From a virus (Duplodnaviria > Heunggongvirae > Uroviricota > Caudoviricetes): a stretch of 11,425 bases of DNA. Each line of letters begins with the position of its first letter. Position 1 is the stretch's first letter. Made by a program: the position numbers and the translations under genes. The notes under the pieces are model-generated. The model had not been told where the DNA came from, searched no databases, and saw only the letters and a program-made list of their open reading frames with translations. Below are positions 1 through 11,425 of the stretch, piece after piece. The DNA lies in IMG/VR virus record IMGVR_UViG_2695420523_000016. The stretch is one strand, 5' to 3'.

Positions 1-71
1 GTGCTTTTGCCGTTACGCACCACCCCGTCAGTAGCTGAACAGGAGGGACAGCTGATAGAAACAGAAGCCAC
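1..71 (-). CDS. insA: IS1 InsA, N-terminal fragment (GTG start at 69-71 on the minus strand; gene continues beyond the window)
   Basis: Hand translation of the reverse complement of 1-71 gives (M)ASVSISCPSCSATDGVVRNGKS, matching the InsA N-terminus from memory. Confidence 0.75.
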   Translation of the reverse strand, partial: MASVSISCPSCSATDGVVRNGKS

Positions 72-126
72 TGGAGCACCTCAAAAACACCATCATACAC
101 TAAATCAGTAAGTTGGCAGCATCACC
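1..126 (-). mobile_element. IS1: IS1 insertion sequence, partial: terminal 126 bp ending in the left inverted repeat (IRL at 104-126); the element body lies beyond the window start
   Basis: Window 1-126 is the reverse complement of the IS1 left end as I recall it; 104-126 atcagtaagttggcagcatcacc is the reverse complement of IRL GGTGATGCTGCCAACTTACTGAT. The minus-strand reading of 1-71 gives the InsA N-terminus. Confidence 0.9.
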
Positions 127-1615: not shown

Positions 1616-2326
1616 CTAAAATGTTATAAATAGTTTTCTCAAATCGCGGTCGTTTGAGAATATATAGTTCTTCGCTTCAAATAGATTATGAGCGTTTTTT
1701 ACAGTTAGAGGAATGATGCTTTTGAAGGAGCTATATGATTTTTGTCTTACATGTTCGAATTCTGACATTTTTAAGCCACGCAGGGTCATTATTATAGTTC
1801 TAATGGATTGAATTATAAGTTCTATGATATTGATTAAGCCAAAATGTATTTTATCGAACTCATGAACGGGCTTGTATCTGAATAACTTCATAGTGTTAAG
1901 GTCGTTTGCTAAAAGCTGAGTTGTGACTTCTAATTCAGTTATTGTATCAAGCAAATATGATTTCATTGATTCGAGAACCGAGTCCTTAAGATGATGGTCA
2001 TAGCCGTTGATTCTAAATTGATAATTTTTAAGTTTAAACTCCAATTCCTCTACGGTATTGAAAATTTTAGGGTAGTGTTGAGTTATTATTTGTTTTTGTA
2101 TTGTGTATGCGTCATCCCTATATTTCTCTTTTTGCCAGTTCGAATATACATAGCCAGCAAAGATGAGAGTGATGACGCTAGAGCCAGCACTTAACAAATC
2201 AGATACGCTCCCCCATTCGAAACTATCAGAACTAGAAAAGAGTACTTTAATGAAAGCTAATATCGCTACCCATAGAAGTACTATGACGGTAGCAACTAAC
2301 AATTTGTTCCATCCTTTAACTCTCAC
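1616..2326 (-). CDS. Hypothetical inner-membrane protein (two N-terminal TM helices, cytoplasmic helical domain of about 170 aa)
   Basis: 236-aa ORF with a GTG start at 2324-2326 and a weak SD. Hydrophobic segments LLVATVIVLLWVAILAFIKVLF and SSVITLIFAGYVY. No family recognised. Confidence 0.5.
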   Translation of the reverse strand: MRVKGWNKLLVATVIVLLWVAILAFIKVLFSSSDSFEWGSVSDLLSAGSSVITLIFAGYVYSNWQKEKYRDDAYTIQKQIITQHYPKIFNTVEELEFKLKNYQFRINGYDHHLKDSVLESMKSYLLDTITELEVTTQLLANDLNTMKLFRYKPVHEFDKIHFGLINIIELIIQSIRTIIMTLRGLKMSEFEHVRQKSYSSFKSIIPLTVKNAHNLFEAKNYIFSNDRDLRKLFITF

Positions 2327-2558: not shown

Positions 2559-3287
2559 ATGAACAGAAAGCAATTCATCCAGTCACACGGAGCTACTTGC
2601 AGTAACTGGACGTGGAGTTGGTCATTTGTTAACCATGAAAAGAAGATGGTCATCTTTGGGTCATGGGATGTTGAGAGTGAGCATGAGCGATCTGTAATAC
2701 TCCGTGAGAAATGGGAATACAACTCAAACAACAAAAAACAACCGGGATACACCCAGGCTCTGGAACACATCAGGTTAGTCCATGAAGGCTACGAACTTTA
2801 CACCTTCAATATGGTTTTCGCAGAACATCCGGATAATCCCGAAATTGCAGTAATCAAAGATTTTGAGCGTAAATTAAACAAGCGATATCTTCGTAAAGAA
2901 GGCGTTGTTTGGTATGCAGACTTCTTACCTAATCCATTCCCCGATGAAATTCCTTCAGGAGAGAGTTTTGTTGAAGGTGCAAAGACTCAAGTAACAGTGA
3001 ACTACTACGAACGCGATCCAAAGGCCAGACAAGCCTGCATCCAGCATCACGGTACTACCTGTAAATGCTGTGGCTTCGATTTTGAGAAGGTCTATGGTAC
3101 ACATGGCCGTGGGTTCATTCATGTACATCACATCAAGCCGCTTCATACGATTGGGGAAAACTATGTAGTAAACCCCGTAACAGATATGATCCCATTATGT
3201 CCAAACTGCCATGCAATGGTACATCGTGGAAGCGGTGTACTTCCAATTGCAGACTTGAAAAAAAAAATGACATTATGGAGCGAGTAA
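2559..3287 (+). CDS. HNH-family nuclease: unassigned N-terminal domain of about 150 aa fused to a C-terminal HNH (McrA-like) motif
   Basis: 242-aa ORF with SD AGGAGG at 2549-2554. The C-terminal region CKCCGFDFEKVYGTHGRGFIHVHHIKPLHTIGENYVVNPVTDMIPLCPNCHAMVH shows the Cys pair, HVHH, and CPNCH-x3-H pattern of HNH nucleases. The N-terminal region (FIQSHGATCSNWTWSWSFVNHEKK...) matches no signature I can name. Confidence 0.85.
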   Translation: MNRKQFIQSHGATCSNWTWSWSFVNHEKKMVIFGSWDVESEHERSVILREKWEYNSNNKKQPGYTQALEHIRLVHEGYELYTFNMVFAEHPDNPEIAVIKDFERKLNKRYLRKEGVVWYADFLPNPFPDEIPSGESFVEGAKTQVTVNYYERDPKARQACIQHHGTTCKCCGFDFEKVYGTHGRGFIHVHHIKPLHTIGENYVVNPVTDMIPLCPNCHAMVHRGSGVLPIADLKKKMTLWSE

Positions 3288-4079
3288 ATGGATTTATCAC
3301 AATTGAGTAACGTCGAATTGATGCAACTGAATCAGTTGACGCTTGATGAGTTAGAACGACGAGAGGTTATCAGAACCAGAAACAATCCTATCAGTGAGTA
3401 CACTGAATGGCTGATTGCGGAAAAGATGCAAATGGTACTGGCTGCACCTAGTACTAAAGGGTATGACGCTACAACGATTGATGATCGAAAAATTCAGATT
3501 AAGTCTCGTAAGAATAATTTAAAAAACCGAACGTTAATTCTTGGAATTATCAGAAATTATGATCTGAACCAATTCGATGAACTCATTGCCGTAATATATA
3601 ACCATGATTTCTCAATTCGTTATGCTATATCCATACCACATGGATTAGTGAAGGAATATGGTTTTTATAATGAGCACCAGAATGGTTACACTCTAAGAAT
3701 CAGCAATTTATTACTTAATGATCCACGTGTAACAGATATCATTGAATTCATTGATCCAGACACTGAACGTTCAAAGGAAGAGATCACGGTGAAGCCAGAT
3801 TCAAACACTATTCGGGATGTACAGACAATAGGAATGCAGACATTTGTTGAGTACTATCAATATGTTGAAGGTGGAATGGACACAACTGATCTTGTTGAAA
3901 AGATGATAACTGACCATCCAGAGTGGAAGGAAAGTACTGCAAGAACAAAGGCATCTTCAATGCGAAGAGTATTCAAGAATGGCGACAACATTGAGGTACT
4001 AAAAATCATCTATAAGTCGAATCACCCAGCAATAACGCATGAGATTAAGAGTAAACTGATGACGCTTTGGGATAAATGA
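3288..4079 (+). CDS. Hypothetical protein, translationally coupled partner of the HNH nuclease; possible PD-(D/E)xK-like N-terminal region
   Basis: 263-aa ORF. Its ATG at 3288-3290 directly abuts the upstream TAA at 3285-3287, with GGAG about 9 nt upstream. The segment EYTEWLIAEKM...GYDATTIDDRKIQIKSR has an E...D...QxK spacing compatible with a restriction-endonuclease-like fold. No Walker A or methyltransferase motifs. Confidence 0.7.
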   Translation: MDLSQLSNVELMQLNQLTLDELERREVIRTRNNPISEYTEWLIAEKMQMVLAAPSTKGYDATTIDDRKIQIKSRKNNLKNRTLILGIIRNYDLNQFDELIAVIYNHDFSIRYAISIPHGLVKEYGFYNEHQNGYTLRISNLLLNDPRVTDIIEFIDPDTERSKEEITVKPDSNTIRDVQTIGMQTFVEYYQYVEGGMDTTDLVEKMITDHPEWKESTARTKASSMRRVFKNGDNIEVLKIIYKSNHPAITHEIKSKLMTLWDK

Positions 4080-4670: not shown

Positions 4671-5180
4671 ATGAAACTCGAACATTTGGCAATTCCGATC
4701 ACTTCATTGAATGGAAAATTACTCGGCGTTGAGCTGGAAACACGTGTACTTATAGATGGTTGCCGGGTGTTGGTTGGTATAGGTAAGGAAAGTGAATACA
4801 TACGTCACGTGGTCTATCAGAACCAGCTAAGAATGATTCAGGGCAAAGCCGCATGGTTTAAAGAAAAGGGGCTGTTGTGCGTGCTCAGTACTGGCAGGGG
4901 TACACGGTATGACGATCTACCATTCATACGGTACATGGCTGCTGAACCACTGCTAACCGACGGTTACGACGTAATACGACTAAATAGACGGTTCACTGAA
5001 GAACACATCGAAAGGCTGATTTTCCCGGTACTCATCAAGAACATCATGCAGTACTGCGACAAGGTGATCGTACAAGTCACTGGCAATAACAATCACAGGA
5101 TTCTACGAGAGTCGGGGATATGGGCAGTACAGGGAGAGTACAGGCCAATCCGCTTTGAACAATGCGAACAACTTCTATAG
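4671..5180 (+). CDS. Minimal or degenerate EAL-like protein (c-di-GMP phosphodiesterase-like fold, probably non-catalytic)
   Basis: 169-aa ORF with GAGAG upstream. The N-terminal PI-x-SLNGKLLGVELETR resembles the EAL-domain start motif (QPI...G.L.G.EALLR). The C-terminal VIVQVTGNNNHRILRESGIWAVQGEYRPI resembles the AEGVE...QGY motif with Glu replaced by Gln. The central DDFGTG region is absent. Confidence 0.5.
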   Translation: MKLEHLAIPITSLNGKLLGVELETRVLIDGCRVLVGIGKESEYIRHVVYQNQLRMIQGKAAWFKEKGLLCVLSTGRGTRYDDLPFIRYMAAEPLLTDGYDVIRLNRRFTEEHIERLIFPVLIKNIMQYCDKVIVQVTGNNNHRILRESGIWAVQGEYRPIRFEQCEQLL

Positions 5181-5691: not shown

Positions 5692-6153
5692 ATGAAAATT
5701 ACAGAAGAGTTAATTTATAAAACATTCAGTAATACCTTTGAAGGAACAATGATATTATTAAAGATTTCAATTCTTAGTACACTAATAACTTTATTCATTC
5801 TTATTAATGGTGCAGATCCTGGGGCGATAGAATCCATAAAGGTGGTCTTTGCTACACTTGCATTGTATGCGATGTCTGTAGGGATTGGCTTAGGTGCAAT
5901 GTTGCTTTCACCAATTACCTATAAAGTGGCTGATTGTTTCGAACTTAAAGCAAATAGCCCCTTATGCAAAGTGATTAGTATCGTATATGGGATGGTGTAT
6001 TTTGCTACAACATATGTAATAGCTACTTATTTGACTTATCTGATTACTGATAGTTATAGGACAGGAAAAGAATTAGTAGCTGTTTACGTAATTAGTACTG
6101 TGACAATATCTTTTATCCAAGCACGTCGTCTCTATAAACTCATTGGTCAATAA
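5692..6153 (+). CDS. Hypothetical integral membrane protein (about four TM helices)
   Basis: 153-aa ORF, AT-rich, with four hydrophobic segments (for example ILLKISILSTLITLFILI and LALYAMSVGIGLGAMLL). No family recognised. Confidence 0.5.
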   Translation: MKITEELIYKTFSNTFEGTMILLKISILSTLITLFILINGADPGAIESIKVVFATLALYAMSVGIGLGAMLLSPITYKVADCFELKANSPLCKVISIVYGMVYFATTYVIATYLTYLITDSYRTGKELVAVYVISTVTISFIQARRLYKLIGQ

Positions 6154-6182
6154 ACTGGCCGTGGTTATTGATGATTTAGTAA

Positions 6183-6202
6183 AGGCCCACAGAAGCGGGC
6201 CT
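6183..6202. terminator. GC-rich hairpin (aggccc / gggcct, 8-nt loop) between convergent genes; candidate terminator, more plausibly for the minus-strand gene
   Basis: 6183-6188 aggccc pairs with 6197-6202 gggcct. On the minus strand it is followed by a modest T-rich tract; no T-run on the plus strand. Confidence 0.3.
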
Positions 6203-6219
6203 GTTAATAATATATCAAA

Positions 6220-6579
6220 TTAAAATTCATCTAAAGTACTTCTTTTCTCGTCTATTACATTAAACTCTAAAAGTCCATCATTAACCTCAAAAGTAACGGT
6301 GGTTGAATATGAATCATCAATATCCATATCCTTACACATGTTATAAATGAAGTAGCTAATGCTATAATGCAAAACGTAGATATTTTCGTCTAAGTATTCA
6401 ATATCATCTATAATGAAATAGTCAGTAGATTGTGCTCTTGAATCAATGAAATCTAAATCAATATCCAAAATCTTTTTTAAAGTTATGTCACTATGATTTT
6501 TATCTAAGTAGTCATAGAGAATTTTTTCAGCTTCTTTCCCGTGGGTTGGAAGTGTTAAATTGAATGGATAGGTAGTCAT
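6220..6579 (-). CDS. Strongly acidic small protein (119 aa) in the moron position upstream of terS, on the opposite strand
   Basis: ORF in the track with AAGG upstream. By hand count about 26 Asp+Glu against about 9 Lys+Arg. No family recognised. Confidence 0.5.
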   Translation of the reverse strand: MTTYPFNLTLPTHGKEAEKILYDYLDKNHSDITLKKILDIDLDFIDSRAQSTDYFIIDDIEYLDENIYVLHYSISYFIYNMCKDMDIDDSYSTTVTFEVNDGLLEFNVIDEKRSTLDEF

Positions 6580-6753
6580 TACATAAACCTTTAGTCAAAT
6601 AATTAATGGTTAACTTTATAAGTACTAAAATAGCATGATGAATTAAAATATTCAATGAAAAGAGAAGGTACTCCCAACACAACTACCAATACGCGAGTTT
6701 TCGGCACCGAATGCTTTCATTCGTATGTGACATTTTAGATGTACACAAAACAT

Positions 6754-9193
<2,440 letters not shown>

Positions 9194-9205: not shown

Positions 9206-11425
<2,220 letters not shown>

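What the first reader, a model, noticed from the sequence alone, without database searches (positions are those of the whole stretch)
6220..6579. Strongly acidic 119-aa protein in the lambdoid moron position: candidate DNA mimic, anti-restriction or immunity protein
The net charge is about -17 by hand count. The gene sits between the upstream accessory genes and terS on the opposite strand, the same position and orientation as I recall for bor in lambda. Small, very acidic phage proteins such as Ocr and ArdA are often DNA mimics that inhibit restriction or other DNA-binding defences. This is speculation on composition and context only.
Basis: inference. Interest (0 to 1): 0.45.

Follow-up and report, generated by a model that had tools for sequence, protein, structure and literature searches.

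The report
Orphan acidic partner of defence nucleases
The acidic 119-residue gene is real and belongs to an undescribed protein family that elsewhere sits in the same operons as phage-defence DNA nucleases, so it is more likely a nuclease-binding regulator or inhibitor than a relative of the known DNA mimics Ocr or ArdA; its function is untested.

Summary
ORF 6220-6579 (-) encodes 119 aa with net charge -17 and pI 4.1. It diverges from terS in an E. coli prophage remnant.

About 50 homologue clusters exist. All intact members are acidic (net -8 to -23) and nearly all end in R-x-T-x-D-E-F.

Their contexts are the main result:
- third gene of GajA-GajB operons, with ATGA overlap
- directly upstream of an OLD-family ATPase-nuclease or an Mrr-type endonuclease
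- directly downstream of a PLD nuclease, in the same slot beside terS in a Pseudocitrobacter sister prophage

The window copy has no partner. Neither do the chromosomal copies in Phytobacter, Kosakonia and Yokenella, yet these are under purifying selection (dN/dS 0.07-0.2).

Best reading, at confidence 0.4: an immunity- or antitoxin-like inhibitor of DNA-nuclease effectors, here as an orphan. No function was tested.

The parts
6220..6579 (-). CDS of the 119-aa acidic protein ('S' family; identical to E. coli hypothetical proteins CTT60629.1 etc.)
   Evidence: ORF list; composition; exact-match cluster; homologues; AlphaFold model pLDDT 87
6588..6592 (-). Candidate Shine-Dalgarno sequence AAAGG, 8 nt upstream of the ATG
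   Evidence: Read from the sequence; inference only
6627..6655 (-). Candidate sigma-70 promoter: TTGAAT, 17-nt spacer, TATTTT (8 of 12 matches, below the scanner's threshold)
   Evidence: Read from the sequence; not reported by the consensus scan; weak inference
6183..6202 (.). G+C-rich hairpin AGGCCC-N8-GGGCCT between the convergent stop codons at 6153 and 6220; candidate bidirectional terminator
   Evidence: Sequence; the T-run is weak, so this is inferred
6154..6690 (.). Variable cargo cassette holding the gene. Homology to the related E. coli G3/10 prophage backbone starts at 6691, and G3/10 carries a DUF3800 gene in this slot instead.
   Evidence: blastn and annotation

Best explanation
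The gene is a partner-less ('orphan') copy of an undescribed family of small, very acidic alpha+beta proteins, called S here. S proteins travel with DNA-nuclease effectors of anti-phage defence systems. The most likely mechanism is that S binds such nucleases and holds them in check, as an immunity- or antitoxin-like 'safety catch'. It would use its acidic surface, its conserved acidic loop (Y-N-G-C-x-D-M-D-x-D-D) and its conserved flexible C-terminal tail (R-x-T-x-D-E-F-COOH) to occupy a DNA-binding or active-site region. In this E. coli prophage remnant S is a monocistronic cassette in the variable cargo slot next to terS. There it either neutralises a cognate nuclease encoded elsewhere (in the host or a competing element), or it is the surviving half of a PLD-nuclease/S pair like the one in the Pseudocitrobacter sister prophage. 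Shown here: the gene is real, the family is acidic, the fold was modelled, the operon couplings exist, and the orphan copies are under purifying selection. Inferred: binding, inhibition, and the roles of the tail and the loop.
For: 1. Acidity and the C-terminal DEF tail are conserved across clades that share only about 30% identity.
2. In 8 loci S is the third gene of GajA-GajB-S, with the S start overlapping the GajB stop (ccggATGAgc). The neighbours are bona fide GajA (PDLC00067, E 7e-230) and GajB (PDLC00132, E 1e-245).
3. S is followed by an OLD-like ABC-ATPase/TOPRIM protein of 655 aa, with a conserved ~57-nt spacer, in L006, L029-31 and an Acidovorax plasmid. This holds even though those S proteins are only 50-57% identical.
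4. S is followed by an Mrr_cat endonuclease at a gap of about 10 nt or with overlap in L008, L028 and L033.
5. In the sister prophage of Pseudocitrobacter faecalis a PLDc_2 nuclease (E 5e-20) sits directly upstream of the 53%-identical S, in the same slot beside terS.
6. The partners have unrelated nuclease folds (TOPRIM, PD-(D/E)xK, PLD). This favours a generic inhibitor that mimics nucleic acid over a fold-specific subunit.
7. Orphan copies are what toxin/immunity pairs leave behind. Chromosomal orphans between the gst and rimO genes in Phytobacter, Kosakonia and Yokenella have dN/dS of 0.07-0.2, so S has value without an adjacent partner.
Confidence: 0.4

Rival explanations
1. S is a free-standing anti-defence protein of mobile elements: a DNA mimic in the manner of Ocr or ArdA that blocks the recipient cell's restriction or other DNA-binding defences. 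It would lie near defence genes only because both kinds of cargo collect in the same hotspots of prophages, plasmids and ICEs.
For: Strong, conserved acidity. The carriers are prophages, a T7-like podophage contig (L038, Head-tail_con portal), and plasmids or ICEs with T4SS genes. The window copy is monocistronic in a moron-type slot. Orphan copies are functional.
Against: S has start/stop overlaps with defence genes and conserved S-nuclease units. There is no similarity to any known anti-restriction family or fold. It is absent from 50,697 GenBank phage records. Conserved orphans occur among housekeeping genes in several genera.
Confidence: 0.2
2. S is a positive defence component: either a sensor or adaptor that couples different nuclease effectors to a common phage or host cue, or an independent small defence gene 'embedded' in larger systems such as Hma.
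For: The most conserved element, the C-terminal R-x-T-x-D-E-F tail, stays the same while the neighbouring nucleases change. This suggests a common target other than the neighbour. S often lies after HmaC (DUF499), where embedded defence cassettes are frequent (bioRxiv 10.1101/2024.01.29.577857). L036 and L037 are defence islands (dCTP-deaminase-like; PD-T7-1, E 7e-165).
Against: At 119 aa with no recognisable catalytic or nucleotide-binding domain, S is an unlikely effector. Orphan copies lack any adjacent effector yet are conserved. There is no PADLOC model hit.
Confidence: 0.2
3. S has a function unrelated to nucleases or defence, for example a small metal- or ligand-binding protein of the NTF2-like kind that hitch-hikes in variable islands.
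For: The weak fold resemblance is to NTF2/SnoaL/cystatin-like rolls. The D-x-D-x-D-D loop and the invariant Cys could bind a metal. One member gave a marginal EF-hand hit.
Against: In the non-enterobacterial clades the gene next to S is, in most loci read, a nuclease or defence gene on the same strand. The structural matches are at noise level.
Confidence: 0.1

Closest known systems
Ocr (T7 gp0.3) and ArdA DNA-mimic anti-restriction proteins
   Same: Small, very acidic (pI about 4), carried by mobile elements, and plausibly acting on DNA-binding enzymes.
   Different: No Pfam or PDB sequence match. The predicted fold is a compact alpha+beta roll with a four-strand sheet, not the all-helical Ocr dimer or the elongated three-domain ArdA. 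S is co-transcribed with defence nucleases instead of being an early phage or plasmid leading-region gene.
Protein inhibitors of nucleases encoded beside their nuclease (barstar, colicin Im proteins, NuiA of Anabaena NucA, CdiI/Tsi-type immunity proteins, type II antitoxins); comparison made from general knowledge
   Same: Small acidic protein encoded immediately next to, and often overlapping, a nuclease gene. Orphan copies are frequent. The conserved C-terminal tail could reach an active site, as NuiA's C-terminus does.
   Different: No detectable homology or fold match to any of them. One S clade pairs with several unrelated nuclease folds, whereas classical immunity proteins are partner-specific. 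Neutralisation has not been tested.
Gabija (GajA-GajB) defence system
   Same: In at least 8 loci S is the translationally coupled third gene after true GajA and GajB.
   Different: Canonical Gabija has two genes. Other Gabija subtypes lack S. The published 'GajC' of type II Gabija is a MazF-like nuclease unrelated to S (PMC13069673). The window contains no GajA or GajB.
phrog_13663 (PHROGs family of unknown function)
   Same: The only library family hit: E 1.2e-5, covering residues 4-107 of S against 5-102 of the 111 profile positions.
   Different: The match is weak and the family carries no annotation, so it says nothing about function.
Lambda Bor (moron between the lysis genes and cos/Nu1)
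   Same: Same geometry: a small gene on the opposite strand just upstream of the small terminase gene.
   Different: Bor is an outer-membrane lipoprotein with a signal peptide. S has no hydrophobic segment, no lipobox and no Lambda_Bor Pfam hit.

Membership tests
Ocr (T7 gp0.3-like DNA mimic) | Sequence match to the Ocr family | tested here: not met
   No Pfam hit for S at E up to 0.1, or for 22 family members at E up to 1. No PDB sequence or profile hit.
Ocr (T7 gp0.3-like DNA mimic) | All-helical banana-shaped dimer that displays a B-DNA-like array of carboxylates | tested here: not met
ArdA anti-restriction | ArdA sequence family and elongated three-domain fold | tested here: not met
   No Pfam, PDB or fold-search match.
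Functional DNA mimic (any fold) | Competes with DNA for binding to a DNA-binding enzyme | not testable with these tools
   Only composition (net -17; family mean -15) and nuclease neighbourhood are available.
Toxin-immunity / type II toxin-antitoxin pair | Adjacent, co-oriented toxin (nuclease) gene | tested here: not met
   In the window there is no gene on the same strand next to S and no remnant of PLD, Mrr, OLD or GajB. The feature is met for homologues: PLD-S, S-Mrr, S-OLD and GajAB-S.
Toxin-immunity / type II toxin-antitoxin pair | The small protein neutralises the toxicity of its partner | not testable with these tools
   Needs co-expression experiments.
Gabija system component | Encoded in an operon with GajA (ABC ATPase-TOPRIM) and GajB (UvrD-like helicase) | tested here: not met
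   PADLOC finds no GajA or GajB among the window proteins. The feature is met only for the 118-aa clade of homologues.
Imm-NTF2 / NTF2-like immunity proteins | Sequence membership or a clear NTF2-like cone fold | tested here: inconclusive
Lambda Bor lipoprotein | Signal peptide with lipobox; Lambda_Bor domain | tested here: not met
   The N-terminus MTTYPFNLTLPTHGKEAE has no hydrophobic core or lipobox Cys. No Pfam hit.
phrog_13663 | Significant full-length profile match | tested here: met
   E 1.2e-5, 26.7 bits, residues 4-107 against profile positions 5-102 of 111. The family has unknown function.

The most novel reading that the evidence does not exclude
S is a protein nucleic-acid mimic that serves as an interchangeable 'safety catch' for many unrelated DNA-nuclease defence effectors. 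This would define a three-component Gabija variant plus S-OLD, S-Mrr and PLD-S modules. S would play the caging role that msDNA plays for OLD-type retron effectors. Its SSB-like acidic C-terminal tip ending in Phe (…DEF-COOH) would be the handle that a phage or host factor pulls to release the nuclease. Orphan copies in prophages and chromosomes would then act as broad anti-nuclease, anti-defence shields.
Probability: 0.15. Interest if true: 0.75.

Novelty: new variant of a known kind. Interest (0 to 1): 0.5.

Why it matters
If S is a nuclease-restraining subunit, three things follow. Some Gabija, OLD-family, Mrr and PLD defence modules would be three-part or toxin/antidote-like systems, with regulation that current two-gene models miss. 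Orphan S genes in prophages would be ready-made, possibly broad, inhibitors of nuclease-based immunity, which matters for phage therapy and for conflicts between prophages. The family would also add a new fold to the small set of protein inhibitors of DNA enzymes. For this window alone the finding is modest: one conserved hypothetical cargo gene in a decaying prophage, now with a testable hypothesis and defined partner candidates.

Tried and rejected
- **Family libraries.** Pfam, NCBIfam and PADLOC scans of S gave no hits. A Pfam scan of 22 family members gave only noise.
- **PDB sequence searches.** phmmer and a profile search found nothing below E 0.08.
- **Structure.** The single-sequence AlphaFold model was unusable at pLDDT 45. 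Only the 38-sequence alignment gave a good model.
- **Phage and plasmid collections.** Searches of GenBank phages by DNA and protein found no match. S itself has no match in plasmids.
- **Locus searches.** The first attempts with broad alignments failed for lack of a conserved stretch. The metagenome scan added only one locus.
- **Partner remnants.** Looked for PLD, Mrr, OLD, GajB and the 534-aa protein in the window and at the enterobacterial orphan loci; none found.
- **Literature.** The published 'GajC' is an unrelated MazF-like nuclease. No paper describing this family was found.
- **Rejected readings.** Bor-like lipoprotein (no signal peptide) and chance ORF (conserved homologues, low dN/dS).

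Full report
**1. The observation**

The minus-strand ORF 6220-6579 exists as described: ATG start, 119 aa. It has 26 Asp+Glu against 9 Lys+Arg, giving net charge -17, pI 4.11 and 14.1 kDa. At -0.143 charge per residue it is the most acidic of the window's 14 main ORFs. It is 29% G+C in a 38.6% window.

The gene stands alone on its strand.
- Upstream it diverges from the small terminase gene (6789-7370; phrog_57, E 3e-19).
- Downstream it converges on a membrane-protein ORF (5692-6153). A G+C-rich hairpin (6183-6202) lies between the two stop codons.
- A weak promoter candidate (TTGAAT-17-TATTTT, 6655-6627) and an AAAGG ribosome-binding site (6592-6588) precede the ATG. Both are inference from sequence.

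**2. Where the window comes from**

The window is 100% identical to IMG/VR contig UViG_2695420412_000018 and 99.97% identical to E. coli assemblies. It is part of a prophage with this layout: large serine recombinase, then about 10 kb of cargo, then terS, a gpA-type terL, a lambda-type portal, and a protease-capsid fusion.

- The cargo includes an HNH protein abutting a protein that matches PADLOC mREase_II at E 3e-61. The region is therefore a defence hotspot.
- The prophage is decaying. terL is frameshifted in every copy examined, and in this window IS1 copies bracket the segment.
- The exact S protein occurs in 266 blocks of the assembly collection, always in this context and always annotated 'hypothetical'.
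- It is absent from 5,426 complete E. coli genomes and from the 50,697 GenBank phage records.
- In the related E. coli G3/10 prophage (inserted in ybhA), homology starts at window position 6691 and the same slot holds a DUF3800 gene. S therefore sits in an exchangeable cassette of about 0.5 kb.

**3. What the protein is**

No Pfam, NCBIfam or PADLOC model matches it. The only hit is phrog_13663, of unknown function, at E 1.2e-5. Nothing in the PDB matches by sequence or by profile.

An exhaustive HMMER scan of 1.84 billion representative proteins found 22 relatives. A profile search added the rest, for about 50 clusters in all. Conserved features are:
- a D-L-D/S-x-I-D-x-R-A segment
- a Y-x-[YW]-x-[IV]-Y-N-G-C-x-D-M-D-x-D-D loop, with L38 and C82 invariant
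- the extreme C-terminus R-x-T-x-D-E-F

All 48 intact members are acidic, with net charge -8 to -23 and mean -15.

With a 38-sequence alignment AlphaFold gives a confident model (pLDDT 87, pTM 0.77). It has a short N-terminal strand, two helices (15-27, 32-38) and a four-strand antiparallel sheet (49-64, 67-78, 87-100, 103-107). The conserved tail is disordered.

**4. Genomic company of the homologues (the main result)**

| S clade | Context | Loci |
|---|---|---|
| 118 aa (Burkholderiales and other proteobacterial plasmids/ICEs) | GajA-GajB-S, with the S start overlapping the GajB stop (ccggATGAgc). Neighbours score GajA PDLC00067 E 7e-230 and GajB PDLC00132 E 1e-245. Flanks vary (Hma/DUF499, NYN, T4SS, type I R-M). 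| 8 |
| 118 aa | S follows, with overlap, an unknown 523-535-aa protein family | L007, L011, L029-31 |
| 118 aa and Acidovorax plasmid | S is followed, after a conserved ~57-nt spacer, by a 655-aa OLD-like ABC-ATPase/TOPRIM protein, although these S proteins are only 50-57% identical | L006, L029-31, L039 |
| 115 aa | S is followed at about 10 nt, or with overlap, by a 290-301-aa Mrr_cat endonuclease | L008, L028, L033 |
| Other | 2 nt upstream of a 351-aa unknown protein in a T7-like phage contig; near PD-T7-1; in an island with a dCTP-deaminase-like gene | L038, L037, L036 |
| 119 aa (Enterobacteriaceae) | PLDc_2 nuclease (312 aa, E 5e-20) directly upstream of the 53%-identical S, beside terS, in a Pseudocitrobacter faecalis prophage with a homologous packaging module | L010 = L022 |

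The window has no PLD remnant.

**5. Orphans**

In Phytobacter, Kosakonia and Yokenella, S (40-46% identical to the window copy) is a solitary chromosomal gene between a glutathione-S-transferase gene and rimO. In Buttiauxella and Dryocola it lies among other housekeeping genes. No partner-gene remnants are present.

Where synonymous sites are not saturated, dN/dS is 0.07-0.2. One copy (L025) has an in-frame stop. S therefore keeps a selectable function without an adjacent partner.

**6. Interpretation**

S is repeatedly operon-coupled to DNA nucleases of three unrelated folds: TOPRIM, PD-(D/E)xK and PLD. This, together with family-wide acidity, a conserved acidic loop and tail, and frequent conserved orphans, fits best a nuclease-binding inhibitor or regulator of the immunity/antitoxin type, probably mimicking nucleic acid (confidence about 0.4). 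The window copy is an orphan. It is either a leftover of a PLD-S pair or a stand-alone shield against a nuclease encoded elsewhere.

Points against this reading:
- Near-identical S proteins sit beside different neighbours.
- Other Gabija subtypes lack S.
- DNA mimics are reported to trigger, not silence, PARIS and Gabija (bioRxiv 10.1101/2024.01.29.577857).
- The most conserved part, the tail, does not change with the partner. That hints at a common target other than the neighbouring nuclease.
- There is an invariant cysteine.

The rivals are a free-standing anti-restriction mimic (0.2), a positive sensor/adaptor or embedded mini-defence gene (0.2), and an unrelated ligand- or metal-binding protein (0.1).

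From general knowledge, the acidic tail ending in Phe resembles the C-terminal tips of bacterial SSB and T7 gp2.5. This is a lead only and was not tested.

**7. Comparison with what is known, and novelty**

- Membership in Ocr, ArdA and Bor was tested and not met.
- The Gabija-component and toxin-immunity criteria are met for homologues but not in the window.
- NTF2-type immunity membership is inconclusive.
- The literature searches found no description of this family. The published 'GajC' is an unrelated MazF-like nuclease.

I rate it a new variant of a known kind: a small acidic modulator of DNA enzymes with a new fold and family, whose function is inferred only. Interest is 0.5. The window gene itself is an ordinary hypothetical cargo gene. 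The family's tight linkage to Gabija, OLD, Mrr and PLD modules is a concrete, cheaply testable lead for research on defence systems.

Noticed in passing
window 7267-9193: The large terminase gene is split by a frameshift near 7781-7806. Frame 1 matches residues 8-185 and frame 2 matches residues 177-622 of the intact 642-aa TerL of the Pseudocitrobacter prophage. The same split is called in most of the E. coli copies examined (in others no terL gene is called), so this is a defective prophage or, less likely, a programmed frameshift.
   Followed up: partly
window 1-126 and 11160-11425: Both ends of the window are 100% identical to IS1 sequence of E. coli G3/10. Other E. coli copies (L001) continue as prophage beyond these points. 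The 11-kb prophage piece is therefore bracketed by IS1 in this genome, and the right-hand IS1 cuts the end of the portal gene.
   Followed up: partly
window 6754-6783: A perfect 12-bp-stem hairpin followed by a T-run ends 5 nt before the terS ATG (6789), and its 3' arm contains the AGGAGG Shine-Dalgarno sequence. It could be a terminator and/or a translational block on terS.
   Followed up: no
window 2559-4079: Two abutting genes. One is an HNH-domain protein (242 aa; Pfam HNH E 2e-6; weak mREase_IV). The other is a 263-aa protein matching PADLOC mREase_II PDLC03212 at E 3e-61 (also DUF6998, phrog_24787). Together they look like a restriction-like defence cassette in the prophage cargo. The sister prophage keeps the HNH gene but has a different second gene.
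   Followed up: partly
window 4671-5180: This 169-aa ORF matches only the C-terminal ~70 residues of an EAL-type c-di-GMP phosphodiesterase model (NF008617, E 2e-6; phrog_32988). It may be a truncated or degenerate EAL domain.
   Followed up: no
window 1616-2326 (-): A 236-aa protein with an N-terminal membrane segment and a weak PADLOC Csm6-like hit (E 2.7e-4). A 236-aa ORF occupies the corresponding position in the Pseudocitrobacter prophage cargo region (L010 9814-10524); their homology was not tested.
   Followed up: no
L035 (E. coli G3/10, NZ_CP060075.1 3424351-3437038): A related, more degraded prophage is inserted in ybhA. It carries a DUF3800 gene in the slot that holds S in the window, plus Hcp, STM2901-family and RipA-like octameric membrane protein genes and IS1/IS3 insertions. 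This shows that the terS-proximal slot is a cargo-exchange hotspot.
   Followed up: partly
L007 4397-6004, L011 4433-6004, L029 4397-6001: An unknown 523-535-aa protein family (78-93% identical to one another) has no Pfam, PADLOC or PDB match. It lies immediately upstream of S and overlaps its start. In L011 it is inserted between GajB and S. It is a candidate new defence or effector protein.
   Followed up: partly
L025 516-872 (Phytobacter sp. V69): The orphan S copy here carries an in-frame stop codon (…GNT*VLYY…), so it is a pseudogene, whereas the neighbouring species keep intact copies.
   Followed up: no
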